Shown here in pieces: positions 33,739-55,929 of a DNA stretch of 64,000 nucleotides; position 1 is the first letter of the stretch, and each line of letters begins with the position of its first letter. The notes under the pieces were generated by a model, which did no database searches, was not told where the DNA came from, and was given only the letters and a program-made list of their open reading frames with translations. Where the stretch lies: assembly GCF_055900595.2 (NCBI RefSeq), contig NZ_CM148325.1; one strand, written 5' to 3'. Position numbers and translations under genes: made by a program.

Positions 33739-35121
33739 TTATTGCTGCCAACCGCCACCCAGGGCGGTATATAAGGAAACTTCGTTAACCTGACGGGCAT
33801 AATTCAGGTCGAGTAAAGTTTGTCGGGTTGCAAATAAAGAACGTTCGGCATCCAGCACTTCCAGATAACTTACCGCGCCGTGCTGATATAATGCCCGCGC
33901 CCGTTGCAGGGTAATTTGCAGCGACGCCAGATAACGCTGCTGGGCGCTGATTTGATCGTTCAGGCTTTGACGTAATGCAAGCGCATCTGCCACTTCTTTA
34001 AAGGCGTTCTGAATTTTCTGTTCATAATTCACCACCGACTGCTGCTGGCGAATTTCGGCGATATCCAGATTGGCCTGGTTGCGTCCGGCATTAAAAATGG
34101 GGATCTCAATTTTGGGAATAAAATTCCACATCCCGCTGCTGGCGTTAAATAATGATGACAGATCGCTGCTGGCGGTTGATATTCCACTGGTCAGGCTTAT
34201 AGACGGGAAAAATGCCGCACGCGCAGCACCAATATTGGCATTAGCCGCCATTAACGCGTGTTCAGCTTCCATAATATCCGGGCGCTGCAACAAGATTTGC
34301 GACGACAAGCCCGCCGGTAATTTAACGCTTTGCAGGCTGTCGCTGTTTACTGTCTGCGCTTGCGGCAGCTTGCCGTAGTTTCCCAATAACAGTTGCAATG
34401 CATTATTCGCCTGCGCCAGTTCCCCCTGACGTTTAGCGATATCACTGCGGGTACTTTCTATCACCCCGCGAGCCTGTTCCAGCGCCAGAACATTGCTGCT
34501 ACCAGTCAAAAGTTGTTTTTCGACAAACGCATATGACTGCTGATAATTACGCAGCGTTTCTTCGGCTATTTGTAATTGCGCATAAGCCAGTTGCTGATTG
34601 AAATAGCTTTGCGCGACATTAGAAACCAGCAGAATATGCACCGCGCGCTGAGCTTCCTCAGTGGCTAAATAATTTTGTCGCTCGGCTTCGCTCATGTTCT
34701 TTAAGCGACCGAAAAAATCGAGATCAAAGCTGGCGTTAAGGCCAGTCGAGAACTCCCGCGTCGTGGCTGAATCGCCTTTAAGATTGCCGCTCCAGCTGCC
34801 GCTACCCTCGCCATTGAGCTGCGGGTAGCGGTCGGCATCGGTCAGACGATATTGCGCCCGTGCCTCCTGCACTTTCAGCGTCGCCATGCGCAAATCCCGA
34901 TTATTCACCAGCGCCTCGCTAATCAGCGTCTTCACCTGATTATCAACAAAAAAGGTGCGCCAGCCCGCGTTCTGGTAGTTATCTACCGCGTTAACCAGGC
35001 CGTTCTGGCTGAGTGAGAACTGCTGCGGCACGGGCATTGCCGGACGCTGATATTCCGGTGCCAGTGAACAACCGGTTAGCGCAAGGGCCACACAAAATGG
35101 CAGAAGTTTACAAGGAGACAT
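33739..35121 (-). CDS. cusC: Outer-membrane factor of the Cus efflux system (lipoprotein)
   Basis: 460-aa ORF MSPCKLLPFCVALALTGCSLAPEYQRP... with lipobox LTGC. Confidence 0.9.
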   Translation of the reverse strand: MSPCKLLPFCVALALTGCSLAPEYQRPAMPVPQQFSLSQNGLVNAVDNYQNAGWRTFFVDNQVKTLISEALVNNRDLRMATLKVQEARAQYRLTDADRYPQLNGEGSGSWSGNLKGDSATTREFSTGLNASFDLDFFGRLKNMSEAERQNYLATEEAQRAVHILLVSNVAQSYFNQQLAYAQLQIAEETLRNYQQSYAFVEKQLLTGSSNVLALEQARGVIESTRSDIAKRQGELAQANNALQLLLGNYGKLPQAQTVNSDSLQSVKLPAGLSSQILLQRPDIMEAEHALMAANANIGAARAAFFPSISLTSGISTASSDLSSLFNASSGMWNFIPKIEIPIFNAGRNQANLDIAEIRQQQSVVNYEQKIQNAFKEVADALALRQSLNDQISAQQRYLASLQITLQRARALYQHGAVSYLEVLDAERSLFATRQTLLDLNYARQVNEVSLYTALGGGWQQ

Positions 35122-35190
35122 AGGCTCATAATTTCTGGTGATTTTATGCCGCCAACTTTACTCGCCAGGCTCTGATTTTCCGGTGACAGG

Positions 35191-35212
35191 AAAATGACAA
35201 AATTGTCATTTT
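35191..35212. promoter_or_regulatory. Putative CusR box in the divergent cusC / cusR promoter region
   Basis: Perfect palindrome AAAATGACAAAATTGTCATTTT between cusC and cusR. Confidence 0.6.
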
Positions 35213-35277
35213 GCCAATAAGCGATTGCCATCTGATCCCGCTACTCTAGAATTGCCCGGGCAACATGCGGAGGAAAT

Positions 35278-35961
35278 ATGAAACTGTTGATTGTCGAAGA
35301 TGAAAAGAAAACCGGCGAATACTTAACCAAAGGGTTAACCGAGGCCGGTTTTGTGGTTGATTTGGCCGATAACGGGCTGAATGGATACCATCTGGCGATG
35401 ACAGGTGATTATGACCTGATAATCCTAGATATTATGCTGCCGGACGTGAACGGCTGGGATATCGTGCGTATGTTGCGTTCCGCCAATAAAGGGATGCCGA
35501 TTCTGTTGCTTACCGCGCTTGGCACCATTGAACATCGCGTCAAGGGGCTGGAGCTGGGAGCGGATGACTATCTGGTGAAGCCGTTCGCTTTTGCTGAACT
35601 GCTGGCGCGGGTGCGCACTCTACTGCGTCGCGGGGCGGCGGTGATTATCGAAAGTCAGTTTCAGGTTGCCGATTTAATGGTTGATCTGGTCAGCCGCAAA
35701 GTCACCCGCAGCGGCACGCGCATCACTTTGACCAGTAAAGAGTTTACTCTGCTGGAGTTTTTCCTTCGCCATCAGGGCGAAGTGCTGCCCCGCTCGCTTA
35801 TCGCCTCGCAGGTGTGGGACATGAATTTCGACAGCGACACTAACGCCATTGATGTGGCGGTGAAGCGGCTGCGCGGCAAAATCGACAACGACTTTGAGCC
35901 GAAGCTGATTCAAACCGTGCGCGGCGTGGGTTACATGCTTGAGGTGCCGGATGGTCAGTAA
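35278..35961 (+). CDS. cusR: Copper-responsive two-component response regulator (OmpR family)
   Basis: 227-aa [33 protein letters not shown]..., receiver plus winged-helix domains. Confidence 0.95.
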
Positions 35962-37393
35962 GCCGTTTCAGCGCCCGTTTTCGCTGGCAACCCGCCTGAC
36001 CTTTTTTATTAGCCTGGCCACCATCGCGGCGTTTTTCGCCTTTGCATGGATCATGATCCACTCAGTAAAAGTGCATTTTGCCGAGCAGGATATTAATGAT
36101 TTAAAAGAGATTAGCGCCACACTTGAACGGGTACTTAATCACCCTGACGAAACGCAAGCCCGACGCTTAATGACGCTGGAAGATATTGTCAGTGGTTATT
36201 CCAATGTGTTGATTTCTCTGGCAGATAGCCACGGTAAAACGGTGTATCACTCCCCCGGCGCGCCGGATATCCGCGAGTTTGCACGTGATGCCATACCCGA
36301 TAAAGACGCTCGGGGCGGCGAGGTGTATCTCCTTTCCGGCCCGACAATGATGATGCCAGGCCACGGTCACGGGCATATAGAACACAGCAACTGGCGGATG
36401 ATTAACTTGCCGGTTGGCCCGCTGGTGGACGGCAAACCGATTTATACGCTCTACATCGCGCTGTCTATTGATTTTCATCTTCATTACATTAATGATTTGA
36501 TGAATAAACTTATTATGACCGCATCGATCATCAGCATCCTGATCGTCTTTATCGTGCTGTTGGCGGTACATAAAGGCCACGCGCCAATTCGCAGCGTCAG
36601 CCGTCAAATCCAGAACATTACCTCGAAAGATCTCGACGTTCGCCTCGATCCACAGACCGTGCCCATTGAACTGGAACAACTGGTGCTGTCGTTCAACCAT
36701 ATGATCGAGCGTATCGAGGATGTCTTTACCCGCCAGTCCAATTTCTGTGCGGATATCGCCCACGAAATTCGCACGCCGATTACGAATCTCATAACGCAAA
36801 CGGAAATCGCCCTCAGCCAGTCGCGCAGCCAGAAGGAGCTGGAAGATGTGCTCTACTCTAATCTCGAAGAGCTGACGCGAATGGCGAAAATGGTCAGCGA
36901 TATGCTGTTTCTCGCTCAGGCCGATAACAACCAGTTAATCCCCGAAAAGAAAATGCTCAACCTGGCGGATGAAGTTGGTAAAGTGTTCGATTTTTTCGAG
37001 GCGTTAGCGGAAGATCGCGGCGTAGCACTACGGTTTGTTGGCGACAAATGTCAGGTTGCGGGCGATCCGCTGATGCTGCGTCGGGCGCTAAGCAACCTGC
37101 TTTCTAACGCCCTGCGTTATACGCCGCCCGGAGAGGCAATTGTAGTGCGCTGTCAAACGGTCGATCACCAGGTGCAAGTTACCGTCGAAAACCCCGGTAC
37201 GCCCATTGCGCCCGAGCACTTACCGCGTTTGTTTGACCGTTTCTACCGCGTTGATCCTTCCCGCCAGCGAAAAGGTGAAGGTAGCGGTATTGGTCTGGCG
37301 ATAGTGAAATCAATTGTTGTCGCGCATAAAGGCACGGTTGCGGTAACGTCAGATGCGCGGGGGACAAGGTTTGTTATCATATTACCCGCTTAA
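35951..37393 (+). CDS. cusS: Copper-sensing histidine kinase
   Basis: ATG at 35951 gives [38 protein letters not shown]...; H-box [10 protein letters not shown]; overlaps the cusR stop. Confidence 0.9.
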
Positions 37394-37542
37394 TCCTTCA
37401 GCAATCGGCAACTTTTATAACCAGTGTAAAAATAACGTGCCGCAATAATCCTACCTATTAATGATAAAAAGCTGTCACAATTCATAAAAAACTTTAATAT
37501 ACGCCACCCTAAACATAACCAGCGTTAATGTAAGGTTTTTGT

Positions 37543-39780
37543 GTGGACTGGCTTCTTGATGTTTTTGCAACCTGGCTATATGGCTTAAAAGTAATCGCGA
37601 TAACGTTAGCGGTCATCATGTTCATCAGCGGGCTGGACGATTTTTTTATTGATGTCGTCTACTGGGTACGCCGCATTAAACGCAAGTTGAGTGTTTATCG
37701 CCGCTACCCGCGAATGAGTTACCGCGAACTGTATAAACCAGATGAAAAACCGTTAGCGATTATGGTTCCGGCGTGGAATGAAACGGGCGTCATCGGCAAT
37801 ATGGCCGAGCTGGCGGCGACCACGCTCGACTATGAAAACTATCATATCTTTGTTGGCACCTACCCCAACGACCCAGATACTCAGCGTGATGTTGACGAAG
37901 TGTGCGCTCGCTTCCCAAACGTGCATAAGGTAGTCTGCGCGCGTCCTGGCCCCACCAGCAAAGCCGACTGCCTGAACAACGTGCTGGACGCCATCACCCA
38001 GTTTGAGCGTAGCGCCAATTTCGCTTTTGCTGGTTTTATTCTGCATGACGCCGAAGACGTAATTTCACCGATGGAATTGCGTCTGTTCAACTATCTGGTC
38101 GAGCGTAAAGATCTGATTCAGATCCCGGTATACCCATTCGAACGCGAATGGACGCACTTCACCAGCATGACTTACATTGATGAGTTTTCAGAACTGCATG
38201 GCAAAGATGTTCCGGTGCGTGAAGCCCTCGCCGGACAGGTGCCCAGCGCAGGCGTCGGTACTTGTTTCAGCCGCCGCGCCGTGACCGCACTGTTAGCTGA
38301 TGGTGACGGTATTGCTTTCGACGTGCAGAGTCTTACTGAAGATTACGACATTGGTTTCCGCCTGAAAGAAAAAGGTATGACGGAAATTTTTGTCCGTTTT
38401 CCGGTGGTGGACGAAGCCAAAGAACGCGAGCAGCGTAAATTTTTACAGCACGCGCGGACGTCAAACATGATCTGCGTGCGCGAATATTTCCCCGATACCT
38501 TTTCGACGGCGGTTCGACAAAAATCTCGCTGGATCATCGGCATTGTTTTCCAGGGCTTTAAAACCCATAAATGGACCTCCAGCCTGACGCTGAACTACTT
38601 TCTCTGGCGCGACCGCAAAGGGGCAATCAGTAACTTTGTCAGCTTCCTCGCGATGCTGGTGATGATCCAGCTTTTGCTGTTACTGGCGTATGAAAGTTTC
38701 TGGCCCGATGCCTGGCATTTCCTTTCTATTTTCAGCGGCAGCGCATGGTTAATGACCCTGCTGTGGCTAAACTTTGGTTTGATGGTTAACCGCATCGTGC
38801 AGCGGGTGATTTTTGTCACTGGCTACTACGGTCTGACGCAGGGGCTGCTATCTGTCCTGCGTCTTTTCTGGGGCAACCTGATTAACTTCATGGCCAACTG
38901 GCGCGCGTTAAGACAGGTACTTCAACACGGCGATCCACGTCGCGTCGCGTGGGATAAAACAACGCATGACTTCCCCAGCGTCACTGGCGATACCCGCTCG
39001 TTGCGCCCGTTAGGTCAAATTCTGCTGGAAAATCAGGTCATCACTGAAGAACAACTCGATACGGCACTGCGTAATCGTGTCGAAGGTCTACGCTTGGGCG
39101 GTTCAATGTTGATGCAGGGGCTGATTAGCGCCGAACAGCTGGCACAGGCACTGGCAGAGCAAAACGGCGTGGCGTGGGAGTCCATCGATGCCTGGCAGAT
39201 CCCTTCTTCGCTGATTGCCGCGATGCCGGCCTCCGTGGCGCTGCATTATGCGGTGCTACCGCTGCGTCTGGAAAATGATGAGTTAATTGTCGGCAGTGAA
39301 GATGGTATTGACCCGGTTTCGCTGGCAGCCCTGACGCGTAAAGTTGGATGCAAAGTGCGTTACGTCATTGTTCTGCGGGGACAAATTGTCACGGGGTTAC
39401 GTCACTGGTATGCACGCCGACGCGGTCACGATCCGCGGGCAATGTTGTACAATGCGGTTCAGCATCAGTGGCTCACGGAACAGCAGGCCGGTGAAATCTG
39501 GCGGCAATATGTGCCGCATCAGTTCCTGTTCGCCGAAATACTGACCACGCTCGGTCATATTAATCGTTCAGCAATTAACGTGTTGTTATTGCGCCATGAA
39601 CGCAGTTCTCTGCCGCTCGGCAAGTTTTTGGTCACCGAAGGCGTTATCAGCCAGGAAACGTTGGATCGCGTCCTGACAATTCAACGCGAATTACAAGTTT
39701 CGATGCAATCACTATTACTCAAAGCAGGTTTAAACACAGAACAGGTTGCGCAACTGGAGTCCGAAAATGAAGGAGAATAA
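37543..39780 (+). CDS. nfrB: NfrB inner-membrane glycosyltransferase (phage N4 adsorption protein B)
   Basis: 745-aa ORF with a GTG start, (M)DWLLDVFATWLYGLKVIAITLAVIMFISGLDD... Confidence 0.9.
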   Translation: MDWLLDVFATWLYGLKVIAITLAVIMFISGLDDFFIDVVYWVRRIKRKLSVYRRYPRMSYRELYKPDEKPLAIMVPAWNETGVIGNMAELAATTLDYENYHIFVGTYPNDPDTQRDVDEVCARFPNVHKVVCARPGPTSKADCLNNVLDAITQFERSANFAFAGFILHDAEDVISPMELRLFNYLVERKDLIQIPVYPFEREWTHFTSMTYIDEFSELHGKDVPVREALAGQVPSAGVGTCFSRRAVTALLADGDGIAFDVQSLTEDYDIGFRLKEKGMTEIFVRFPVVDEAKEREQRKFLQHARTSNMICVREYFPDTFSTAVRQKSRWIIGIVFQGFKTHKWTSSLTLNYFLWRDRKGAISNFVSFLAMLVMIQLLLLLAYESFWPDAWHFLSIFSGSAWLMTLLWLNFGLMVNRIVQRVIFVTGYYGLTQGLLSVLRLFWGNLINFMANWRALRQVLQHGDPRRVAWDKTTHDFPSVTGDTRSLRPLGQILLENQVITEEQLDTALRNRVEGLRLGGSMLMQGLISAEQLAQALAEQNGVAWESIDAWQIPSSLIAAMPASVALHYAVLPLRLENDELIVGSEDGIDPVSLAALTRKVGCKVRYVIVLRGQIVTGLRHWYARRRGHDPRAMLYNAVQHQWLTEQQAGEIWRQYVPHQFLFAEILTTLGHINRSAINVLLLRHERSSLPLGKFLVTEGVISQETLDRVLTIQRELQVSMQSLLLKAGLNTEQVAQLESENEGE

Positions 39781-42739
39781 CCTTAATCGCGTCATCGGAT
39801 GGTCTGGTTTACTGCTGACGTCTTTATTGAGTACCAGCGCACTCGCAGACAATATCGGCACCAGCGCAGAAGAGCTGGGGCTGAGCGATTATCGCCATTT
39901 TGTTATTTATCCCCGTCTCGATAAGGCGCTGAAGGCACAGAAAAATAACGACGAAGCAACCGCCATCCGCGAATTTGAATATATACACCAGCAGGTGCCG
40001 GATAATATTCCGCTGACTTTATACCTTGCGGAAGCCTATCGCCATTTTGGTCATGATGACCGGGCGCGGCTGTTGCTTGAGGATCAACTGAAACGTCACC
40101 CAGGAGATGCCCGACTTGAGCGCAGTCTGGCGGCTATTCCAGTTGAAGTGAAAAGCGTTACGACTGTTGAAGAACTGCTTGCCCAGCAAAAAGCGTGCGA
40201 CGCTGCGCCGACCCTGCGTTGTCGCAGTGAAGTCGGGCAGAATGCCCTGCGGCTGGCACAATTACCTGTCGCCAGAGCGCAACTGAACGATGCGACGTTT
40301 GCTGCATCGACGGAAGGAAAAACGCTGCGAACCGATCTGCTGCAACGGGCAATCTACCTCAAGCAGTGGTCGCTGGCAGAAGCGTTGTTCAGTGAATCAC
40401 GGCAACAAAATACATTAAACGCAGCTGAGCGCCGTCAGTGGTTTGATGTTCTGCTCGCAGGCCAGCTGGATGATCGGATCCTGGCGCTGCAATCAGAGGG
40501 GATCTTCACCGATCCACAGTCATATATTACTTACGCGACCGCGCTGGCTTATCGTGGCGAGAAAGCACGCCTCCAGCATTATCTCATTGAAAATAAGCCG
40601 CTGTTTACCACGGACGCACAAGAGAAAAGTTGGCTCTATCTGTTATCTAAATACAGCGCCAACCCCGTTCAGGCGTTGGCGAATTATACGGTACAGTTTG
40701 CCGATAACCGCCAGTATGTTGTTGGCGCGACGCTACCGGTGCTGTTAAAAGAAGGTCAGTACGACGCAGCGCAAAAACTGCTCGCCACCCTCCCCGCCAA
40801 TGAAATGCTTGAGGAGCGTTATACCGTTAGCGTAGCGACCCATAACAAGGCTGAAGCTCTGCGTCTGGCACGATTGCTGTATCAGCAAGAACCGGCAAAT
40901 CTTACCCGCCTGGATCAACTGACCTGGCAACTGATGCAGAACGAGCAGTCACGCGAAGCTGCCGATTTATTGCTGCAACGCTATCCTTTCCAGGGCGATG
41001 CGCGTGTCAGCCAGACTTTAATGGCGCGACTGGCGTCTCTGCTGGAAAGTCATCCTTACCTGGCAACTCCGGCGAAGGTGGCGATTTTATCGAAACCCTT
41101 ACCGCTGGCGGAGCAACGTCAGTGGCAAAGTCAGTTGCCGGGTATTGCAGATAATTGCCCGGCAATAGTTCGCTTGCTGGGCGATATGTCGCCTTCCTAC
41201 GATGCCGCCGCCTGGAACCGTCTGGCAAAGTGTTATCGGGACACGCTACCCGGCGTGGCGTTGTATGCATGGCTTCAGGCCGAACAACGGCAACCGAACG
41301 CCTGGCAACATCGTGCGGTAGCCTATCAGGCGTATCAGGTTGAGGATTACGCCACCGCACTGGCGGCCTGGCAGAAAATCAGTCTTCACGACATGAGCAA
41401 TGAGGATCTGCTTGCTGCTGCCAATACCGCCCAGGCGGCAGGAAATGGTGCGGCTCGCGATCGCTGGCTTCAGCAGGCAGAACAACGTGGGCTGGGAAAC
41501 AATGCCCTCTACTGGTGGCTGCATGCGCAACGTTACATTCCTGGTCAGCCGGAACTCGCACTGAACGATCTCACGCGCTCAATCAATATTGCGCCTTCTG
41601 CCAACGCTTACGTTGCGCGGGCGACAATTTATCGCCAACGTCATAATGTCCCGGCGGCGGTGAGTGATTTGCGCGCCGCTCTGGAACTGGAACCGAATAA
41701 TAGCAACACCCAGGCAGCGCTCGGTTACGCCTTGTGGGATAGCGGTGATATTGCACAGTCGCGGGAAATGCTCGAACAGGCGCATAAAGGGCTACCGGAC
41801 GATCCGGCACTTATCCGACAACTGGCCTACGTGAACCAGCGTCTGGATGATATGCCTGCGACGCAGCACTACGCCCGGCTGGTGATTGATGACATTGATA
41901 ATCAGGCGCTGATAACCCCACTGACCCCAGAGCAAAATCAGCAACGCTTCAATTTCCGCCGTCTGCATGAGGAGGTCGGTCGCCGCTGGACGTTCAGTTT
42001 CGATTCTTCTATCGGCTTGCGTTCCGGCGCAATGAGTACCGCTAACAATAATGTCGGCGGCGCAGCGCCAGGGAAAAGCTATCGTAGCTACGGGCAACTG
42101 GAAGCCGAGTACCGCATCGGACGCAATATGCTGCTGGAAGGCGACCTGCTCTCGGTTTACAGCCGTGTATTTGCCGATACCGGAGAAAACGGGGTGATGA
42201 TGCCGGTGAAAAATCCGATGTCCGGCACCGGTCTGCGCTGGAAGCCGCTGCGCGATCAGATCTTTTTCCTCGCCGTCGAACAGCAGTTGCCGCTGAACGG
42301 GCAAAATGGCGCATCCGATACCATGCTGCGCGCCAGCGCCTCATTCTTTAATGGCGGCAAATACAGCGACGAATGGCACCCGAACGGTTCAGGCTGGTTT
42401 GCCCAAAACCTGTACCTCGATGCGGCGCAATATGTCCGCCAGGATATTCAGGCGTGGACGGCAGATTATCGCTTAAGCTGGCATCAGAAGGTGGCGAACG
42501 GACAGACTATTGAGCCTTACGCTCACGTTCAGGACAACGGCTATCGGGATAAAGGTACCCAGGGCGCGCAGCTTGGCGGTGTCGGTGTCCGCTGGAATAT
42601 CTGGACCGGCGAGACGCACTACGACGCCTGGCCGCACAAAGTCAGTCTCGGCGTCGAATATCAACATACCTTTAAGGCGATTAATCAACGTAACGGAGAG
42701 CGCAACAACGCGTTTCTCACCATTGGAGTGCACTGGTAA
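39767..42739 (+). CDS. nfrA: NfrA outer-membrane protein (phage N4 adsorption protein A), TPR-rich
   Basis: ATG at 39767 gives MKENNLNRVIGWSGLLLTSLLSTSALA...; overlaps the nfrB stop; C-terminal beta-barrel-like region ending in W. Confidence 0.9.
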   Translation: MKENNLNRVIGWSGLLLTSLLSTSALADNIGTSAEELGLSDYRHFVIYPRLDKALKAQKNNDEATAIREFEYIHQQVPDNIPLTLYLAEAYRHFGHDDRARLLLEDQLKRHPGDARLERSLAAIPVEVKSVTTVEELLAQQKACDAAPTLRCRSEVGQNALRLAQLPVARAQLNDATFAASTEGKTLRTDLLQRAIYLKQWSLAEALFSESRQQNTLNAAERRQWFDVLLAGQLDDRILALQSEGIFTDPQSYITYATALAYRGEKARLQHYLIENKPLFTTDAQEKSWLYLLSKYSANPVQALANYTVQFADNRQYVVGATLPVLLKEGQYDAAQKLLATLPANEMLEERYTVSVATHNKAEALRLARLLYQQEPANLTRLDQLTWQLMQNEQSREAADLLLQRYPFQGDARVSQTLMARLASLLESHPYLATPAKVAILSKPLPLAEQRQWQSQLPGIADNCPAIVRLLGDMSPSYDAAAWNRLAKCYRDTLPGVALYAWLQAEQRQPNAWQHRAVAYQAYQVEDYATALAAWQKISLHDMSNEDLLAAANTAQAAGNGAARDRWLQQAEQRGLGNNALYWWLHAQRYIPGQPELALNDLTRSINIAPSANAYVARATIYRQRHNVPAAVSDLRAALELEPNNSNTQAALGYALWDSGDIAQSREMLEQAHKGLPDDPALIRQLAYVNQRLDDMPATQHYARLVIDDIDNQALITPLTPEQNQQRFNFRRLHEEVGRRWTFSFDSSIGLRSGAMSTANNNVGGAAPGKSYRSYGQLEAEYRIGRNMLLEGDLLSVYSRVFADTGENGVMMPVKNPMSGTGLRWKPLRDQIFFLAVEQQLPLNGQNGASDTMLRASASFFNGGKYSDEWHPNGSGWFAQNLYLDAAQYVRQDIQAWTADYRLSWHQKVANGQTIEPYAHVQDNGYRDKGTQGAQLGGVGVRWNIWTGETHYDAWPHKVSLGVEYQHTFKAINQRNGERNNAFLTIGVHW

Positions 42740-43630
42740 ATGCGTAAGTTCATTTTCGTATTGCTGACACTGCTTTTGGTCAGCCCTTTTTCCTTTGCGA
42801 TGAAAGGTATTATCTGGCAACCACAAAACCGTGATAGTCAGGTTACCGATACCCAGTGGCAGGGGCTGATGAGTCAGTTACGTTTGCAAGGCTTCGATAC
42901 CCTGGTTTTGCAATGGACCCGTTACGGCGATGCATTCACCCAGCCAGAACAGCGCGCGTTATTGTTTAAGCGTGCCGCAGCTGCGCAACAGGCTGGCCTG
43001 AAGCTGATTGTCGGGCTGAATGCCGATCCGGAATTTTTTATGCACCAGAAACAGTCATCCGCGGCGCTGGAAAGCTATCTTAATCGCCTGCTGGCTGCCG
43101 ATCTCCAGCAAGCCAGATTATGGAGCGCCGTACCTGGCGTAACGCCGGATGGCTGGTACATCAGCGCGGAAATTGACGACCTGAACTGGCGCAGCGAAGC
43201 CGTCCGTCAGCCCTTGCTAACGTGGTTAAACAATGCGCAGCGGCTGATTAGTGATGTTTCGGCAAAACCGGTTTATATCAGTAGTTTTTTCGCCGGAAAT
43301 ATGTCGCCCGATGGCTATCGCCAACTGCTGGAACACGTTAAAGCAACCGGCGTTAATGTCTGGGTTCAGGATGGCAGCGGCGTTGATAAACTCACCGCTG
43401 AACAGCGTGAACGTTATCTACAGGCCAGCGCCGATTGCCAAAGCTCCGCCCCAGCAAGCGGCATTGTTTATGAACTGTTTGTCGCCGGCAAAGGCAAAAC
43501 CTTTACCGCGAAACCGAAACCGGATGCAGAGATCGCCTCGCTGTTAGCGAAACGTTCCTCTTGCGGTAAAGACACGCTCTATTTCTCTCTGCGCTATTTG
43601 CCCGTCGCGCACGGCATTCTCGAGTATTAA
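42740..43630 (+). CDS. ybcH: Periplasmic protein YbcH (third gene of the nfrBA-ybcH unit)
   Basis: 296-aa MRKFIFVLLTLLLVSPFSFAMKGIIWQP..., start immediately after the nfrA stop. Confidence 0.85.
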   Translation: MRKFIFVLLTLLLVSPFSFAMKGIIWQPQNRDSQVTDTQWQGLMSQLRLQGFDTLVLQWTRYGDAFTQPEQRALLFKRAAAAQQAGLKLIVGLNADPEFFMHQKQSSAALESYLNRLLAADLQQARLWSAVPGVTPDGWYISAEIDDLNWRSEAVRQPLLTWLNNAQRLISDVSAKPVYISSFFAGNMSPDGYRQLLEHVKATGVNVWVQDGSGVDKLTAEQRERYLQASADCQSSAPASGIVYELFVAGKGKTFTAKPKPDAEIASLLAKRSSCGKDTLYFSLRYLPVAHGILEY

Positions 43631-43812
43631 ATCTCCTCCAGGTAAGTCGGGTACGACCTGGCTTACCTCTTTCGCTCTCGTCAGAATTCCATCAAGATTA
43701 ATTGCTAAAAAGCGTGCTAAAGAAAGAAGATCGTTATCGGCGAACGGGCCGATCACTCATGCAGGAAGCATAGATCCTTTGAGCGGAGTTTCTGATATCT
43801 GAGGAGTGCGAA

Positions 43813-44574
43813 ATGCAATTGAGCAGCAGTGAACCTTGCGTGGTGATCCTGACCGAAAAAGAGGTAGAGGTAAGCGTCAATAACCATGCTACGTTTACCC
43901 TTCCGAAAAACTACCTGGCCGCCTTCGCGTGCAACAATAACGTCATTGAACTCTCAACGTTAAATCACGTATTAATCACCCACATCAACCGTAACATCAT
44001 CAACGATTATCTGTTGTTTTTAAATAAGAACTTAACCTGTGTAAAGCCCTGGTCGCGGCTGGCTACCCCGGTTATCGCTTGTCATAGCCGTACACCGGAA
44101 GTGTTCCGGCTAGCCGCCAACCACAGCAAGCAGCAACCCAGCAAACCCTGCGAAGCGGAGTTGACGCGCGCATTGCTTTTTACCGTATTGTCTAACTTTC
44201 TTGAGCAATCGCGGTTTATTGCCCTACTGATGTATATCTTACGCAGCAGCGTCCGCGACAGCGTCTGCCGCATTATTCAAAGCGATATTCAGCATTACTG
44301 GAATCTGCGAATTGTCGCCAGTTCGCTATGTTTAAGCCCCAGCCTGCTCAAAAAGAAATTAAAAAACGAAAATACCAGCTATAGCCAGATTGTCACAGAG
44401 TGTCGTATGCGTTACGCCGTACAGATGTTATTGATGGATAACAAAAATATCACTCAGGTAGCGCAATTATGTGGCTATAGCAGCACGTCGTACTTTATCT
44501 CTGTTTTTAAGGCGTTTTACGGCCTGACACCGTTGAATTATCTCGCCAAACAGCGACAAAAAGTGATGTGGTGA
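43813..44574 (+). CDS. envY: AraC-family transcriptional regulator EnvY
   Basis: 253-aa ORF with a C-terminal AraC-type HTH (QVAQLCGYSSTSYFISVFKAFYGLTPLNY). Confidence 0.85.
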   Translation: MQLSSSEPCVVILTEKEVEVSVNNHATFTLPKNYLAAFACNNNVIELSTLNHVLITHINRNIINDYLLFLNKNLTCVKPWSRLATPVIACHSRTPEVFRLAANHSKQQPSKPCEAELTRALLFTVLSNFLEQSRFIALLMYILRSSVRDSVCRIIQSDIQHYWNLRIVASSLCLSPSLLKKKLKNENTSYSQIVTECRMRYAVQMLLMDNKNITQVAQLCGYSSTSYFISVFKAFYGLTPLNYLAKQRQKVMW

Positions 44575-44619
44575 AGGGCAAAGCGGAAACAGATAAGACT
44601 GGCATAAATCAAGAAGAAA

Positions 44620-44664
44620 TGGCGCGCCCTGCAGGATTCGAACCTGCGGCCCACGACTTAGAAG
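44620..44664 (-). other. 45-nt copy of the 3' end of tRNA-Arg (argU), a prophage attachment-site repeat and not an intact tRNA
   Basis: Minus strand reads CTTCTAAGTCGTGGGCCGCAGGTTCGAATCCTGCAGGGCGCGCCA (T-arm, acceptor stem and CCA); identity to argU as recalled stops at the anticodon-stem side and there is no D-arm or anticodon loop. Confidence 0.75.
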
Positions 44665-45086
44665 TTCCTAGAACGACATTTTAAGTCAACAACTTACCGC
44701 GCCATCTCTGCGCTCACACGTCCCACTACCTCAAAACATGTAAAGCCTTGCAAGCCATTGTGAGGCCTTATGTGTCTCAGTTTTGTCCCTCTTTTTTGTA
44801 CTAAAAAACATAGTAATTGAGGATAAACCTCATGCTATTTTCGCTTATATGCCTCTAAAGGCATGGCACTTAAATAGATAAAAGCACCACAAAAGCATAA
44901 AAAACCACACAGTAAAACCGCAATATGAAACAATAACAGATAATTAAACCAAAAACAGATAGCGCATTGTGATAATCATTCAATACTAAACAAAATATAA
45001 ACAGTGGAGCAATATGTAATTGACTCATTAAGTTAGATATAAAAAATACATATTCAATCATTAAAACGATTGAATGGAGAACTTTT

Positions 45087-46040
45087 ATGCGGGCGAAACT
45101 TCTGGGAATATTCCTGACAACCCCTATTGCGATCAGCTCTTTTGCTTCTACCGAGACTTTATCGTTTACTCCTGACAACATAAATGCGGACATTAGTCTT
45201 GGAACTCTGAGCGGAAAAACAAAAGAGCGTGTTTATCTAGCCGAAGAAGGAGGCCGAAAAGTCAGTCAACTCGACTGGAAATTCAATAACGCTGCAATTA
45301 TTAAAGGTGCAATTAATTGGGATTTGATGCCCCAGATATCTATTGGGGCTGCGGGCTGGACTACTCTCGGCAGCCGAGGTGGCAATATGGTCGATCAGGA
45401 CTGGATGGATTCCAGTAACCCCGGAACCTGGACAGATGAAAGTAGGCACCCTGATACACAACTCAATTATGCCAACGAATTTGATCTGAATATAAAAGGC
45501 TGGCTCCTCAACGAACCCAATTACCGCCTGGGACTCATGGCCGGATATCAGGAAAGCCGTTATAGCTTTACAGCCAGAGGTGGTTCCTATATCTACAGTT
45601 CTGAGGAGGGATTCAGAGATGATATCGGCTCCTTCCCGAATGGAGAAAGAGCAATCGGCTACAAACAACGTTTTAAAATGCCCTACATTGGCTTGACTGG
45701 AAGTTATCGTTATGAAGATTTTGAGCTAGGTGGCACATTTAAATACAGCGGCTGGGTGGAAGCATCTGATAACGATGAGCACTATGACCCAGGAAAAAGA
45801 ATCACTTATCGCAGTAAAGTCAAAGACCAAAATTACTATTCTGTTGCAGTCAATGCAGGTTATTACGTAACACCTAACGCAAAAGTTTATGTTGAAGGCG
45901 CATGGAATCGGGTTACGAATAAAAAAGGTAATACTTCACTTTATGATCACAATGATAACACTTCAGACTACAGCAAAAATGGTGCAGGCATAGAAAACTA
46001 TAACTTCATCACTACTGCTGGTCTTAAGTACACATTTTAA
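45087..46040 (+). CDS. ompT: Outer-membrane protease (omptin)
   Basis: 317-aa MRAKLLGIFLTTPIAISSFASTETLSFTPDNINADISLGTLSGK... ending ...AGLKYTF. Confidence 0.9.
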   Translation: MRAKLLGIFLTTPIAISSFASTETLSFTPDNINADISLGTLSGKTKERVYLAEEGGRKVSQLDWKFNNAAIIKGAINWDLMPQISIGAAGWTTLGSRGGNMVDQDWMDSSNPGTWTDESRHPDTQLNYANEFDLNIKGWLLNEPNYRLGLMAGYQESRYSFTARGGSYIYSSEEGFRDDIGSFPNGERAIGYKQRFKMPYIGLTGSYRYEDFELGGTFKYSGWVEASDNDEHYDPGKRITYRSKVKDQNYYSVAVNAGYYVTPNAKVYVEGAWNRVTNKKGNTSLYDHNDNTSDYSKNGAGIENYNFITTAGLKYTF

Positions 46041-46289
46041 GAACGCCAACTAAAATTTCCCCGAGGTGAAAATCGCCCCGGGGAATAACTAGCCATTTCA
46101 ATGTAACAATTAACCCTTAAAATAAACCCAGAAGGTTATTAACTAAATCACATAGAAAACCATCAATTATAGTGTGTATAAAATAGCCGACAGCAACCCA
46201 ATTACAAATTAATGGTTCCAGAATATCACATCAAAAAACACGCTGTATAATATTATAATTAACATGTAGACAACTTGTAATAAACATTA

Positions 46290-47039
46290 TCAGTCAATTG
46301 TTTTGTTTATTCCATCTGTGACGCCGATTATTTTCTCAAAATAATGAGATGGCGTGACACCATAATAATCTTTAAATGCACATATGAAATATGAAGTACT
46401 GTTATAGCCACATTTCTGGGCTACGACATTGATAGAATAAGAGTTTGAAGTTATGAGTTTTTTTGCATACCTCATCCTAGTATCTCTCAATATTTCAGTA
46501 AATGACGTTCCTTCATCCCTTAATCTTTTTTTTATTAAACTTTCACTCGTATAAATCAATTCCGCAATATCTTTTAAATGCCATTGCCGCTCAATATTAA
46601 AACTGATTATTCCAGTAATTTTACATGTAAATGTATTTATATTTGTTAGTATAAATGAATTTACACTTTCGCGTTTTTTGAACATGGCAAGTAAGGATAT
46701 ACATAGTCTTTCTTTTAACCAAAGGGAGTGTGAGTCTGCTATTTTAATCCCTTCAAACAGAGAAAAAACAAGCGATAATGGAGGTTCCTCTTCAGCAATA
46801 TAGCCATTCTTATCAAGAGTAAATTTGCCAGGCAACTCATTATTCACGTCGATAAAAAAGGATAAACATGTTTTCTTATCTATATCAACAATTCTTAGTT
46901 TAGAGGGGCATACTGGTAACTCTCTTCTAATTTTGTCGCTTACAATAAACAATGAATTTTTTTTGAACGAGATAACTCTCCTGTTTATAATTAAATCAAA
47001 TGATTGACAGATGAAAACTACGGAGCAAACATAATCCAT
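46290..47039 (-). CDS. appY: AraC-family transcriptional activator AppY
   Basis: 249-aa [36 protein letters not shown]...; AT-rich gene and AT-rich upstream region (47040-47600). Confidence 0.9.
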
Positions 47040-47714
47040 CTTGCACCTATCATAAAATTAAAACAAGTTGATAGTAGTCAAATAACAGCCAATTAAATAC
47101 ACAATCATAATCAGGATGATGTGCATTTATATTTTTATACACAAAATTATAGTTTGCAAATTTTAATAAGTTTCATTTAAGATTAAATTATTATATGTAT
47201 ATTGTTTTTTATTCTAACGTATTTCAAAGTTACATTTTTCAACGCTTACTATGCTTTTTATTAACATAAACTCACTACAACGCACCTGAAACCTCTTGCT
47301 ATATATATGTCAACCGTTTGAATTTAAAATAAAAAGAGTATCATTTTTACTTGCATTTCTTATCAAGTCACATTCAACAACAGTAAAAAAACATTATTAG
47401 AACCATTCAATTAACAAAAAACCAACATCCAGCTTGCTTAATTTTTCTTTATTAAACGATATTGAAAATCAATTGATAAAATACATCTAAACAACCTTTT
47501 GGGGCGCAAAAGCATAACATCAAACAAACAAATAACACACCGAAAAAACTCACAATTAATAACCTATGATATACATACTGTTTATTATGGTTGAATAAGC
47601 CACTCGATATCTGGTGCTACGGAAGTGTCCACACGGTTTAGCAGCACCCGATACTTTTTCCAGGCTTCCAGCAACGAGTTTTCTTCCTCCGTTGCATATA
47701 CAGCTCACCTTTTT

Positions 47715-50024: not shown

Positions 50025-50049
50025 ATTTGATGACGGTAATGACTCCAAC

Positions 50050-50553
50050 TTATTGATAGTGTTTTATGTTCAGATAATGCCCGATGACTTTGTCATGCAG
50101 CTCCACCGATTTTGAGAACGACAGCGACTTCCGTCCCAGCCGTGCCAGGTGCTGCCTCAGATTCAGGTTATGCCGCTCAATTCGCTGCGTATATCGCTTG
50201 CTGATTACGTGCAGCTTTCCCTTCAGGCGGGATTCATACAGCGGCCAGCCATCCGTCATCCATATCACCACGTCAAAGGGTGACAGCAGGCTCATAAGAC
50301 GCCCCAGCGTCGCCATAGTGCGTTCACCGAATACGTGCGCAACAACCGTCTTCCGGAGCCTGTCATACGCGTAAAACAGCCAGCGCTGGCGCGATTTAGC
50401 CCCGACATAGCCCCACTGTTCGTCCATTTCCGCACAGACGATGACGTCACTGCCCGGCTGTATGCGCGAGGTTACCGACTGCGGCCTGAGTTTTTTAAGT
50501 GACGTAAAATCGTGTTGAGGCCAACGCCCATAATGCGGGCAGTTGCCCGGCAT
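50050..50553 (-). CDS. insB: IS1 InsB reading frame (expressed as an InsAB' fusion by -1 frameshift)
   Basis: 167-aa ORF ...[33 protein letters not shown]...; overlaps insA. Confidence 0.85.
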
Positions 50554-50747
50554 CCAACGCCATTCATGGCCATATCAATGATTTTCTGGTGCGTACCGGG
50601 TTGAGAAGCGGTGTAAGTGAACTGCAGTTGCCATGTTTTACGGCAGTGAGAGCAGAGATAGCGCTGATGTCCGGCGGTGCTTTTGCCGTTACGCACCACC
50701 CCGTCAGTAGCTGAACAGGAGGGACAGCTGATAGAAACAGAAGCCAC
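50472..50747 (-). CDS. insA: IS1 InsA protein
   Basis: 91-aa [43 protein letters not shown]... Confidence 0.85.
50488..50499 (-). promoter_or_regulatory. IS1 programmed -1 ribosomal frameshift site (A6C run)
   Basis: Minus strand reads CTTAAAAAACTC in the insA / insB overlap. Confidence 0.5.
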
Positions 50748-50801
50748 TGGAGCACCTCAAAAACACCATCATACACTAAATCAGTAAGTTGGCAGCATCA
50801 C

Positions 50802-51430
50802 CCATTACCGCCCATAATGATGATATTAGTGACGCCCTCACTAAATTCTGCGTAGCTCTCAATATCATCATTTGGATCAAAAGTTTCTTTATCCTTACCT
50901 GACCACTCAGCACCGCCAGACTGAGTGATGATATTTTGTGGTTTAATATTCCAGTCCAGCTCATAACGTTCAATACCATCGCCCTCAATGATATTTTTCC
51001 CCGTTGTGATTGCCTGAACGGCAAGCCATTCAATACGTGCACGAATAGCTTTAGCCTGATTTACAATCGCCTGTTTAACTTTAATATTACGCGCTCCAAA
51101 AGCATTGTATTGCTCAGGTGATACACCAGCAGGGCGCACAGCTAACTTATTTGGATCAATGCTGCTTTTCGGCTTCATATAGCCTGGACGAATTGTTTTT
51201 GATTCGAACCCTTCGTCACGTGAAACTTTACTACCCACCATAGGAGAACAAAACGCTGCAATTGGGATATTTGGATCGTCGATTGTATCAAGAATAATAT
51301 CGCGCGATTCAAACATTACCGAGCGAGTAAAAAACAAACTGGTAAACAACGCATTTAGTTGTTTTTGTACATCTACAGCATTAACCACCTGTACAAGCTG
51401 AGTAGGCGAATATAAATCAACCATACGCAT
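50802..51430 (-). pseudogene. Divergent lambda-E-like major capsid protein gene, 3'-truncated by IS1
   Basis: ATG at 51430 gives MRMVDLYSPTQLV... (compare lambda E MSMYTTAQLLA); continues ...NIITQSGGAEWSGKDKETFDPNDDIESYAEFSEGVTNIII (compare lambda E NNITQSGGTEWSKRDKSTYDPTDDIEAYALNASGVVNIIV), then runs into the IS1 end after about 206 codons. Confidence 0.6.
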
Positions 51431-51640
51431 CCTCTTTGCATTCATTAAAAATAATTGTGGATATATGCTATCACCGATATTTGTCATGCGAACACATGCA
51501 ACCGAGTGCAATGTTGTATAAAGTTTTGGGGTGACAACTTCAGTGCGGACAATTAGTGTTAATATCTTCACTCCCTTTGGTCGGGATTTATGTAGCATGC
51601 CGGAAAATTTATTTTTTCTGGCTTTTTTTATTGGCAATAT

Positions 51641-52090
51641 TTAAAACGGGATATCATCTCCCCATTGCTCATTATCTCCCACTGGTGGCTGGCTTCCTTG
51701 CTGATCTGCCTGTTGTTTTGCTCTGTTCAGTGCGTCAGTAGCCTGCCCCTGTTGGCCTTTATTGCCGCCCGGTCGCACCGATCGCGCACTGATTACGCTG
51801 TCTGCGATAACCTGCCAGCCCTGCCGCGTTTCGCCGTTCTGTCCAGTCCACTGGCTCATCTGCATGTTACCCGCCACGCTCAGGAGTTCGCCTTTGTGAT
51901 GCTTTGCCAGCGCGTCGGCTTGTCTGCCAAACGCCAGGACAGATAACCACATCGTCGCCTGACCGTCATCCGACTGACTGCAGGGCAGTGATACCGCCAT
52001 ACGCGCCAGCGTCATGGGGGTGCCCTTGCTGGTCTGTTTTGTCTGCGGGTCGTCCACCAACCGCCCGTAAACTGATATTTGCGCCGTCAT
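51641..52090 (-). CDS. ssb: Single-stranded DNA-binding protein
   Basis: 149-aa ORF with an OB-fold-like N-terminal region, a Gly/Gln-rich linker and the acidic SSB tail ending DDIPF. Confidence 0.75.
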   Translation of the reverse strand: MTAQISVYGRLVDDPQTKQTSKGTPMTLARMAVSLPCSQSDDGQATMWLSVLAFGRQADALAKHHKGELLSVAGNMQMSQWTGQNGETRQGWQVIADSVISARSVRPGGNKGQQGQATDALNRAKQQADQQGSQPPVGDNEQWGDDIPF

Positions 52091-52332
52091 GCTGCCTGCT
52101 CTCCGGACTTAATATTGATTGTTGTCACTTCCTCCGCTTCAGCAATCTCCCGTTCGGTCAGAGTGGCAAAGTTTGCAGCCGCCGTTGTCATGAATGCGCT
52201 AATCAGTTCGGGATGTGCTTTCGCGTATCCTTCCCCGGCGTTGCGGTCGATGATTTTTATCGACACCCTTAACCAGTGTTCCGTCAAATCAAGGGCGTGC
52301 GATTGTGATTTTTTTGTGTGCTTCGCTGTCAT
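52087..52332 (-). CDS. Hypothetical protein, translationally coupled to ssb
   Basis: 81-aa ORF whose stop overlaps the ssb start (ATGA); no family recognised. Confidence 0.45.
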   Translation of the reverse strand: MTAKHTKKSQSHALDLTEHWLRVSIKIIDRNAGEGYAKAHPELISAFMTTAAANFATLTEREIAEAEEVTTINIKSGEQAA

Positions 52333-52379
52333 AGGCTTTATCTCACAGCAGTAAATTAAAATTTTTGCGTTTTAACCCT

Positions 52380-52610
52380 TCACCTGTTCACCTTTTGATA
52401 TTTTCTCTTTTAATTCATAATGTTAATGGGTGAACAGTTTCACAAAAACTATTCACCAACTGTTCACCACTGTTCACCCTTGAAGCTCAATAAACAATCA
52501 AAAAGGTGAACAGTGAATAGTTTGGTGAACAGTTCATAAATAACTGTTCACCCTATAATATACTGATATAAAAGATATTTATGACAGGGTGAACAGTGGT
52601 GAACAGTTAT
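52380..52610. repeat. Iteron array (about ten copies of CTGTTCACC / GGTGAACAG in both orientations), putative satellite origin of replication
   Basis: Copies near 52385, 52429, 52451 (variant), 52461, 52471, 52505, 52524, 52545, 52588 and 52598, interspersed with AT-rich spacers; the octamer TGTTCACC is the P4 type I iteron as recalled; lies directly 3' of the primase gene. Confidence 0.65.
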
Positions 52611-52619
52611 TCCATAAGT

Positions 52620-54440: not shown

Positions 54441-54724
54441 TTGTTACCTCCGGCAACTAACATTGCCCGAATTTTGCGGATATAGCCTGCGGCACGCCTC
54501 TGATTATCTGTCTTGCAATTTTTTACCAGAATGAAATCTCTTTCGAACTGCTGACGCGGCATAACACATTCAAAATCATAACCATCACGCAAATAAGAGA
54601 CACGACGATCATCAACCGAAATAATCTTTACCCGATAGCCATAGCTGTCTTTGAAAATATCCCCAAGGCTGATTTTTGAATGAGTTTGACCGCTGGCAAT
54701 AAAGCCAGAAAATTTATTTTTCAT
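54437..54724 (-). CDS. Hypothetical small basic protein, translationally coupled to the primase
   Basis: 95-aa ORF with a GGAG ribosome-binding site 8 nt upstream of the ATG; stop overlaps the primase ATG (ATGA). Confidence 0.45.
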   Translation of the reverse strand: MKNKFSGFIASGQTHSKISLGDIFKDSYGYRVKIISVDDRRVSYLRDGYDFECVMPRQQFERDFILVKNCKTDNQRRAAGYIRKIRAMLVAGGNK

Positions 54725-54727
54725 TTT

Positions 54728-54952
54728 TTATTCTCCGGTATAGCTCTGGTCGTGTATTTTTATAGCTTCATCCAGCTCTTTGATGACAGGATCAAGTAAC
54801 GTAATTAACGCTCCAGCTAAATTAGCATCCCGTTCATCGTGTTCCGCATTTGTTGTCCCATCAAGCCAGGTTGATAAGATTTCTCGCATATTTTTGCCAC
54901 AAACGAGCGCGTTTTCAGCATGTGTCAGCACTTTAAAATAAAGATCATTCAT
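54728..54952 (-). CDS. Hypothetical small acidic protein
   Basis: 74-aa ORF in the same operon-like array upstream of the primase. Confidence 0.4.
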   Translation of the reverse strand: MNDLYFKVLTHAENALVCGKNMREILSTWLDGTTNAEHDERDANLAGALITLLDPVIKELDEAIKIHDQSYTGE

Positions 54953-55479: not shown

Positions 55480-55506
55480 GAATAATTGAAGTCAAGGAGC
55501 TAACAC

Positions 55507-55863: not shown

Positions 55864-55929
55864 ACTGTTCACATTGCCTATCAGGCGATAACCTCGTATT
55901 CTGATTAAGGCTAACTATATACTCACATT

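What the first reader, a model, noticed from the sequence alone, without database searches (positions are those of the whole stretch)
37543..43630. nfrB-nfrA-ybcH phage N4 receptor / exopolysaccharide locus sits adjacent to the prophage boundary
This is conserved K-12 content, noted for context only: the three genes are intact with overlapping or abutting starts (nfrB stop overlaps the nfrA start; ybcH starts right after the nfrA stop), so the phage N4 adsorption pathway is probably functional in this strain.
Basis: established knowledge. Interest (0 to 1): 0.2.

Follow-up and report, generated by a model that had tools for sequence, protein, structure and literature searches.

The report
Intact nfrB-nfrA-ybcH phage-receptor sugar operon
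This stretch is the ordinary, undamaged E. coli operon that makes and exports the surface sugar used as a receptor by phage N4 and related phages; it is well known and nothing about it here is unusual.

Summary
The three genes are nfrB 37543-39780 (GTG start, 745 aa), nfrA 39767-42739 (990 aa, 14-nt overlap with nfrB) and ybcH 42740-43630 (296 aa, ATG directly after the nfrA TAA). Lengths, start codons and gene order match E. coli K-12 b0569-b0567. There are no gaps, frameshifts or internal stops; amino-acid differences from K-12 number 4, 18 and 6.

Every NfrB residue shown by mutagenesis to matter (D169, D267, W330, L490, G491, L537) is kept, as are both c-di-GMP-binding motifs. The four NfrB substitutions fall in columns that vary among distant homologues. 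All three proteins exceed their NCBIfam equivalog cut-offs.

The locus is core genome: 5415 of 5426 complete E. coli genomes match it. It is not prophage cargo. The DLP12-type prophage end, a 45-bp argU-derived att copy at 44620-44664, lies 990 bp downstream with envY in between.

Limits: ybcH is dispensable for N4 in K-12. The other required genes (wecB, dgcJ) and any masking by O-antigen or capsule lie outside the window, so strain-level N4 susceptibility cannot be judged.

Side result: YbcH models as a glycoside-hydrolase-like TIM barrel.

Verdict: already known, low interest.

The parts
37394..37542 (+). cusS-nfrB intergenic region (149 bp), which holds the operon's promoter region and the nfrB ribosome-binding site (AAGG at 37533-37536)
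   Evidence: 144 of 149 bases are identical to K-12 with no indels. No sigma-28 consensus match lies here at up to 3 mismatches. The generic promoter scan was uninformative.
37543..39780 (+). nfrB: inner-membrane family-2 glycosyltransferase activated by c-di-GMP, 745 aa, GTG start
   Evidence: 741/745 identical to K-12 NfrB, no gaps. NCBIfam NF008411 equivalog scores 1328.6 bits against a cut-off of 1170. Pfam finds Glyco_trans_2_3 and MshEN. D169, D172, T265-E266-D267 and Q326/R329/W330 are all present. The exact allele is seen on 363 public contigs.
37750..38688 (+). GT2 catalytic domain of NfrB (residues 70-382), with the DxD, TED and QxxRW motifs
   Evidence: Pfam PF13641 covers residues 70-332 and PF13632 covers 165-382. 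The motif residues are conserved in 30-32 of 32 distant homologues and are kept here.
39007..39162 (+). c-di-GMP-binding domain of NfrB (residues 489-540): two 24-residue MshEN motifs, PLGQILLENQVITEEQLDTALRNR and RLGGSMLMQGLISAEQLAQALAEQ
   Evidence: Regex match to the motif of PMC5013675, widened here to accept Q at motif position 10 because the first NfrB repeat has Gln498 there. NCBIfam NF053729 c-di-GMP_motif scores 66.4 bits against a cut-off of 38 at residues 489-540. L490, G491 and L537 are present. None of the four substitutions relative to K-12 lies in this domain.
38947..39179 (+). Two 8-bp direct repeats GCGTGGGA (38947-38954 and 39172-39179), 225 bp apart. In other E. coli this 225-bp unit is deleted, giving the 670-aa NfrB allele that lacks the c-di-GMP motifs. 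Both repeats and the intervening unit are present here, so the segment is undeleted.
   Evidence: The 225-bp segment is present in 5053 of 5426 complete genomes.
39767..42739 (+). nfrA: outer-membrane TPR plus beta-barrel export protein, 990 aa, ATG start 14 nt inside nfrB
   Evidence: 972/990 identical to K-12, no gaps. NCBIfam NF007302 equivalog scores 1878.5 bits against a cut-off of 1223. Pfam finds TPR repeats and NfrA_C at residues 809-977. The exact allele is seen on 232 public contigs.
42740..43630 (+). ybcH: periplasmic DUF4434 protein, 296 aa, predicted glycoside-hydrolase-like TIM barrel
43813..44574 (+). envY (context): AraC-type regulator lying between the operon and the prophage end
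   Evidence: Annotation of identical DNA in L001 and of K-12. It differs from K-12 at 3 nt and 1 aa.
44620..44664 (-). attR of the DLP12-type prophage: a 45-bp exact copy of the 3' part of tRNA-Arg argU. The prophage side starts at 44665 (ompT, appY, tail-fibre remnants).
   Evidence: Exact 45-bp match, and the only one in the window. In K-12 the corresponding copy (L002 26058-26102) starts one base after the annotated DLP12 end. GC content drops from 50-57% across the nfr operon to 31-45% beyond 44 kb.

Best explanation
This is the canonical chromosomal nfrBA-ybcH operon of E. coli. It encodes a synthase-dependent exopolysaccharide system.

- NfrB is an inner-membrane processive family-2 glycosyltransferase. 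Its C-terminal MshEN domain binds c-di-GMP, supplied locally by DgcJ, and this switches the enzyme on.
- NfrB most likely polymerises UDP-ManNAc, made by WecB, into the 'N4 glycan receptor' (NGR).
- NfrA, a TPR plus beta-barrel outer-membrane protein, exports the polymer.
- YbcH is an auxiliary periplasmic protein. I infer that it is a clan-GH-A-like glycoside hydrolase that trims or clears the polymer.

In this window the operon is intact and under purifying selection, and it carries no change at any residue known to matter. It therefore most likely encodes working proteins.

Shown here: gene identity, intactness, motif conservation, synteny and the position of the prophage boundary. Taken from the literature: c-di-GMP activation, DgcJ coupling, WecB dependence and the receptor role. 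Inferred: the YbcH hydrolase role and function in this particular strain.
For: Identity with K-12 is gapless, at 741/745, 972/990 and 290/296.

Substitutions are mostly silent: 52 nt but 4 aa differences in nfrB, 87 and 18 in nfrA, 35 and 6 in ybcH.

Equivalog HMMs are all above their cut-offs, and the Pfam domains agree.

All six mutagenesis-defined NfrB residues of PMC8669469 are present, as are both 24-residue c-di-GMP motifs.

The four NfrB substitutions (L386F, K457R, E560A, R603C) fall in variable columns of 32 homologues at 32-61% identity. R is in fact the majority residue at 457, and A occurs at 560.

The exact alleles recur on 363, 232 and 387 public contigs.

The locus is found in 5415 of 5426 complete genomes, and 5046 of these hold at least 80% of the query in one place.

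Gene order cusRS-nfrB-nfrA-ybcH-envY-att-ompT-appY is the same as in K-12.

The mechanism is taken from PMC8669469 and PMC8669472.

For YbcH.
Against: Nothing in the sequence argues against identity or intactness.

The four-substitution NfrB allele is lineage-specific: none of 9 other sampled full-length cluster members carries it. Cys at 603 was not seen in the 32 distant homologues, so a quantitative effect on regulation cannot be excluded.

No recognisable sigma-28 promoter was found upstream, although FliA dependence is reported. That dependence may be indirect.

Expression, activity and phage adsorption were not and cannot be measured here.
Confidence: 0.93

Rival explanations
1. The genes are intact, but the strain is still not productively adsorbed by N4. 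The block would lie outside the window: defective dgcJ, dgcQ or wecB, high PdeL activity, or O-antigen or capsule masking the NGR glycan.
For: N4 infection needs WecB and DgcJ-made c-di-GMP, and it is blocked by PdeL (PMC8669472, PMC8669469). Some E. coli carry lesions in dgcJ. In O157:H7 strain ECRC100 an identical NGR locus appears to be masked. This strain is a wild-type-like, non-K-12 lineage at about 97% identity.
Against: UTI89, which has an O-antigen and a capsule, is still infected by N4 in a wecB-dependent way. The pathway genes are reported as strongly conserved in E. coli. No data on this strain's other loci are available.
Confidence: 0.3
2. The lineage-specific substitutions impair or retune the system even though the reading frames are intact. 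The candidates are NfrB E560A and R603C in the C-terminal MshEN subdomain, L386F at a transmembrane boundary, and the NfrA 203-218 patch.
For: All four NfrB changes occur together only in this allele among those sampled. E560A and R603C lie within the region that aligns to MshE residues 8-145. Cys at 603 is not seen in 32 homologues.
Against: All four columns are variable across homologues, and none lies in the 53-residue c-di-GMP-binding domain or the GT motifs. The allele is widespread, on 363 contigs. The 48:4 ratio of silent to replacement changes indicates continued purifying selection. The NfrA barrel changes are conservative (I835L, I890V, V903L).
Confidence: 0.06
3. The operon is cargo of, or was brought in by, the neighbouring prophage rather than being core chromosome.
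For: It lies within 1 kb of the prophage att site.
Against: It lies outside the att repeat, on the chromosomal side. It is present in 5415 of 5426 complete E. coli genomes. Its GC content is 50-57%, against 31-45% on the prophage side. Orthologous YbcH proteins occur across Enterobacteriaceae.
Confidence: 0.01

Closest known systems
E. coli K-12 nfrB-nfrA-ybcH operon (b0569-b0567), the Nfr / N4 glycan receptor (NGR) system of Junkermeier & Hengge 2021 and Sellner et al. 2021
   Same: Gene order, gene lengths, start codons, the 14-nt nfrB/nfrA overlap, the abutting nfrA/ybcH junction, the flanking cusS and envY genes, and all functional motifs are the same. Nucleotide identity is 96-98%.
   Different: There are only point substitutions: 4, 18 and 6 amino acids. 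The four in NfrB are L386F, K457R, E560A and R603C. Seven of the 18 NfrA changes cluster at residues 203-218.
PgaABCD poly-beta-1,6-GlcNAc system
   Different: In Pga, c-di-GMP is sensed at the PgaC-PgaD interface rather than by a fused MshEN domain. The polymer is GlcNAc, not the proposed ManNAc. PgaB also has a deacetylase domain, for which the nfr operon has no counterpart.
Bacterial cellulose synthase BcsA/B/C/Z
   Same: It has a processive GT2 with DxD, TED and QxxRW motifs that is allosterically activated by c-di-GMP. It also has a TPR plus beta-barrel exporter (BcsC) and an accessory periplasmic hydrolase (BcsZ).
   Different: The c-di-GMP receptor is a PilZ domain. The nfr operon has no BcsB-like subunit. 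BcsZ is GH8, an (alpha/alpha)6 fold, not a TIM barrel.
MshE / PilB / PilF type IV pilus ATPases (MshEN domain, PDB 5HTL)
   Same: They share the same 53-residue c-di-GMP-binding module, made of two 24-residue motifs. NfrB residues 488-623 align to MshE residues 8-145.
   Different: In those proteins the module is fused to a secretion ATPase. In NfrB it is fused to a membrane glycosyltransferase.

Membership tests
NfrB (NCBIfam NF008411, c-di-GMP-activated glycosyltransferase) | Full-length match to the equivalog model above its curated cut-off | tested here: met
   1328.6 bits against a cut-off of 1170, model positions 1-722 of 723.
NfrB (NCBIfam NF008411, c-di-GMP-activated glycosyltransferase) | Processive GT2 active-site signatures DxD, TED and QxxRW, including D169, D267 and W330, which are required for N4 plating | tested here: met
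   D169/D172, T265-E266-D267 and Q326/R329/W330 are present. They are conserved in 30-32 of 32 homologues. The requirement comes from PMC8669469.
NfrB (NCBIfam NF008411, c-di-GMP-activated glycosyltransferase) | MshEN c-di-GMP-binding domain with two 24-residue motifs (L490, G491, L537) | tested here: met
   The motifs lie at residues 489-512 and 517-540. NF053729 scores 66.4 bits against a cut-off of 38. The residues are present.
NfrB (NCBIfam NF008411, c-di-GMP-activated glycosyltransferase) | Actual c-di-GMP binding and activation, and interaction with DgcJ | not testable with these tools
   This needs DRaCALA or MST and pull-down experiments. dgcJ is outside the window.
NfrA (NCBIfam NF007302; TPR plus NfrA_C outer-membrane exporter) | Full-length equivalog match, TPR repeats and the C-terminal NfrA_C barrel domain | tested here: met
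   1878.5 bits against a cut-off of 1223 over residues 1-990. PF13283 NfrA_C matches residues 809-977 at E 2e-67, and TPR families match as well.
YbcH / DUF4434 (NCBIfam NF007404, Pfam PF14488) | Full-length equivalog match | tested here: met
   520.6 bits against a cut-off of 344. PF14488 matches at E 1e-68.
Clan GH-A-like glycoside hydrolases (proposed working analogy for YbcH) | (beta/alpha)8 barrel with conserved carboxylates at the C-terminal ends of strands 4 and 7 | tested here: inconclusive
Synthase-dependent exopolysaccharide secretion systems | An operon combining an inner-membrane GT2 synthase regulated by c-di-GMP, an outer-membrane TPR plus beta-barrel porin, and a periplasmic accessory enzyme | tested here: met
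   The domain content of the three co-directional, translationally coupled genes fits this description.
N4-susceptible host pathway (NGR display) | wecB and dgcJ/dgcQ present, low PdeL activity, glycan accessible | not testable with these tools
   None of these loci is in the 64-kb window.
DLP12-type prophage boundary | A direct-repeat copy of the argU 3' end marking the att site next to ompT | tested here: met
   An exact 45-bp copy lies at 44620-44664, at the position corresponding to the K-12 DLP12 end.

The most novel reading that the evidence does not exclude
YbcH may not be a passive 'scaffold'. It may be the missing periplasmic glycoside hydrolase of the Nfr/NGR pathway: a clan-GH-A-like retaining enzyme using E144 (strand 4) and E245 (strand 7). 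It would trim or clear the ManNAc-based polymer, as BcsZ, PslG and the PgaB C-domain do in their own systems. This concerns the whole family rather than this window specifically. A second reading is also not excluded, at about 5%: this lineage's four-substitution NfrB allele may retune c-di-GMP/DgcJ control of receptor display.
Probability: 0.4. Interest if true: 0.3.

Novelty: already known. Interest (0 to 1): 0.07.

Why it matters
As a finding it matters little. It records that a well-characterised, nearly universal E. coli operon is present and undamaged in this strain.

Its practical value is for phage work. The in-window prerequisites for NGR-dependent phages (N4, Bas69, Vequintavirinae, phi92-like) are met, so the strain is not predicted to be resistant through nfrA or nfrB loss.

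That is a real possibility in nature. About 7% of complete genomes lack the 225-bp c-di-GMP-motif segment of nfrB. About 8% lack the canonical cusS-nfrB junction and nfrB 5' end.

Tried and rejected
1. **Sigma-28 promoter.** I searched for the consensus TAAAGTTT-N11-GCCGATAA at up to 3 mismatches. There is no site upstream of nfrB. The two hits elsewhere in the window are at chance level.

2. **Generic promoter and terminator scans.** Promoter-like sites were no more frequent than in shuffles. Terminator-like sites were about twice as frequent as in shuffles (22 against 10.3), but nearly all lie inside coding sequence and none lies in the ybcH-envY spacer. The hairpin after ybcH (43638-43668) has no T-run and is identical in K-12, so I made no terminator claim.

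3. **Rfam and tRNA scans.** Nothing was found inside the locus.

4. **Word-indexed protein search with NfrB.** The listed top 120 were essentially all E. coli/Shigella NfrB variants, fusions and truncations, which is useless for judging conservation. I replaced it with the representative-library search.

5. **PDB sequence searches for YbcH.** Neither the single sequence nor the profile gave any hit. Only fold comparison was informative.

7. **Prophage-cargo reading.** I rejected it on the att position, near-universal presence of the locus, and GC content.

8. **Failed scripts.** Two scripts failed on a file-name assumption. One paper look-up failed on a term that was too short.
Full report
**What is there**

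The window is E. coli DNA in the opposite orientation to the K-12 map. A 7.5-kb query around the finding matched 5415 of 5426 complete E. coli genomes. In 5046 of them at least 80% of the query lay in one place. Eight genomes were about 100% identical, and all were annotated cusS, nfrB, nfrA, ybcH, envY.

The annotation of one identical genome and of MG1655 gives the same gene order: cusCFBA, cusRS, nfrB, nfrA, ybcH, envY, ompT, appY, then DLP12-type prophage genes. The window is collinear with K-12 from 33740 to 47695 at 97.3% identity, with a single 1-base gap that lies in the envY-ompT spacer.

**Check of the observation**

The ORF list shows 37543-39780 (745 aa, GTG), 39746-42739 and 42740-43630 (296 aa) on the + strand.

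Reading the junctions gives three results:
- nfrB starts with GTG, 6 nt after an AAGG.
- The nfrA ATG is at 39767 and the nfrB TAA is at 39778-39780. This is a 14-nt overlap, the same as described for K-12 (PMC8669469).
- The nfrA TAA at 42737-42739 is followed at once by the ybcH ATG.

**Intactness**

BLASTP against the K-12 products gives 741/745 for NfrB, 972/990 for NfrA and 290/296 for YbcH. Lengths are equal and there are no gaps. Start codons are the same as in K-12.

Most nucleotide differences are silent: 52 nt and 4 aa in nfrB, 87 and 18 in nfrA, 35 and 6 in ybcH. This is the pattern of genes kept under purifying selection.

The upstream intergenic region is 144/149 identical to K-12, and the ybcH-envY spacer is 181/182 identical.

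All three proteins exceed the curated cut-offs of their NCBIfam equivalog models, and the Pfam domains are as expected.

**Functional residues**

Junkermeier and Hengge showed that D169A, D267A and W330A abolish N4 plating. They also showed that L490A, L490A/L537A and G491L reduce it. All six residues are present here.

The c-di-GMP module defined for MshE is two 24-residue motifs (PMC5013675). In NfrB it lies at residues 489-512 and 517-540. A further single motif lies at 691-714.

The four differences from K-12 (L386F, K457R, E560A, R603C) lie outside the GT motifs and outside the binding module. I aligned the protein with 32 near-full-length homologues at 32-61% identity taken from the representative search. 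In that alignment the catalytic and binding columns are nearly invariant, whereas the four substituted columns are variable. Arg is the commonest residue at 457, Ala occurs at 560, and Phe occurs at 386. Position 603 is variable, although Cys was not seen there.

The four changes travel together as a lineage allele. None of 9 other sampled full-length cluster members has them. The exact protein nevertheless occurs on 363 public contigs; the NfrA and YbcH alleles occur on 232 and 387.

**How common is the intact state?**

The protein search turned up frequent structural alleles of nfrB in other E. coli.

- One is a 670-aa form with an in-frame loss of residues about 471-545, which removes both c-di-GMP motifs. 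It arises between two 8-bp repeats, GCGTGGGA, that stand 225 bp apart. Their copies here are at 38947-38954 and 39172-39179.
- Another is a 1268-aa open reading frame in which a PAAR/DUF6531 protein replaces the first 54 or so residues of NfrB.

In the 5426 complete genomes, 5053 keep the 225-bp segment. The canonical cusS-nfrB junction with the nfrB 5' end is kept in 5010. The intact arrangement seen here is thus the majority state, but it is not guaranteed. This fits the remark by Sellner et al. that some strains carry lesions in nfrB or dgcJ.

**Prophage boundary**

The 45-bp 3' part of argU that forms the DLP12 att repeat in K-12 occurs once in the window, at 44620-44664 on the minus strand. 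This is 46 bp after the envY stop. It is also the position that corresponds to the annotated DLP12 end in K-12.

GC content is 50-57% across the nfr genes and falls to 31-45% on the prophage side. The operon is therefore chromosomal and lies 990 bp from the boundary, separated from it by envY.

**How it works**

The mechanism below comes from the literature, apart from the last step.

- NfrB is a c-di-GMP-activated synthase. Its isolated C-terminal part binds c-di-GMP with a Kd of about 1 uM.
- DgcJ interacts with NfrB and supplies the signal.
- WecB supplies UDP-ManNAc.
- NfrA is the TPR plus barrel exporter.
- The secreted glycan (NGR) is the primary receptor for N4 and for other wecB-dependent phages.
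- YbcH is dispensable for N4 plating and only partly needed for the motility phenotype.

To say something about YbcH, I aligned 48 homologues at 42-89% identity and modelled the protein. The model has pLDDT 92.7 and pTM 0.90. It is an eight-stranded beta/alpha barrel.

Invariant Glu144 and Glu245 sit at the ends of strands 4 and 7, where clan GH-A enzymes carry their catalytic pair. I therefore infer that YbcH is the pathway's periplasmic hydrolase. This remains an inference: there is no sequence-level PDB relative and no activity data.

**What cannot be concluded**

Whether N4 adsorbs to this strain depends on wecB, on dgcJ and dgcQ, on PdeL, and on surface masking. All of these lie outside the window. 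UTI89 is infected despite having an O-antigen and a capsule. In one O157:H7 background, by contrast, an identical NGR locus appears to be inaccessible.

**Verdict**

The finding is real, correctly interpreted, and ordinary. It is a known operon in its commonest, intact form.

Noticed in passing
window 50804-58709 (with IS1 at 50035-50803); complete copy in L003 2886-13661: A satellite-like integrative element sits inside the major capsid gene of the DLP12-type lambdoid prophage. It carries a tyrosine integrase (57066-58352), an HTH gene, a DUF2971 gene, a SWIM gene, an Icd-like gene, a primase (52620-54440), ssb, and its own lambda-gpE-like capsid gene (50798-51637). The prophage capsid 5' fragment (58434-58709) ends in ...GYVKPKH. 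In the complete copy the 3' fragment resumes at PKH, and a 10-bp direct repeat, TGCTTCGGCT, lies at both junctions. The element's capsid is 41% identical to the capsid it interrupts. In L003 it is followed by its own head-decoration gene and a TIR-domain gene. In the window, IS1 has removed the element's far end and the prophage tail genes. No complete genome of the 5426 has this 44-64 kb arrangement at 80% coverage or more.
   Followed up: partly
window 22174-23146: The hokE/sokE type I toxin-antitoxin locus is tandemly duplicated: two units of about 502 bp at about 95% identity, with two Rfam sok hits at 22419-22573 and 22921-23076. In the otherwise identical genome L001 an IS421 copy lies immediately upstream of each hokE copy. 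The window has no IS421.
   Followed up: partly
other E. coli genomes; the corresponding window positions are 38947-39179: A common natural nfrB allele (670 aa; e.g. P0118 on 330 contigs) carries a 225-bp in-frame deletion between 8-bp repeats, GCGTGGGA. The deletion removes the whole c-di-GMP-binding module. 373 of 5426 complete genomes lack this segment. It looks like a recurrent route, possibly phage-selected, to uncouple or silence receptor-glycan synthesis.
   Followed up: partly
other E. coli genomes; the cusS-nfrB junction, window 37394-37704: In many strains the 5' end of nfrB is replaced. One reading frame of 1268 aa fuses a PAAR/DUF6531 (Rhs-type) N-terminal part to NfrB residues 55-745 (P0073, 527 contigs). 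Other strains carry a small island with SMI1/KNR4-type genes between cusS and an intact nfrB (L004). 416 of 5426 complete genomes lack the canonical junction.
   Followed up: partly
window 40373-40420 (NfrA residues 203-218): Seven of the 18 NfrA differences from K-12 cluster in 16 residues of the TPR region (Q203L, D205E, T206A, Y208F, N209S, A211S, S218N). Six of the seven states (all but S218N) occur in an Escherichia albertii NfrA (P0020). This suggests an old polymorphism or a recombination patch.
   Followed up: no
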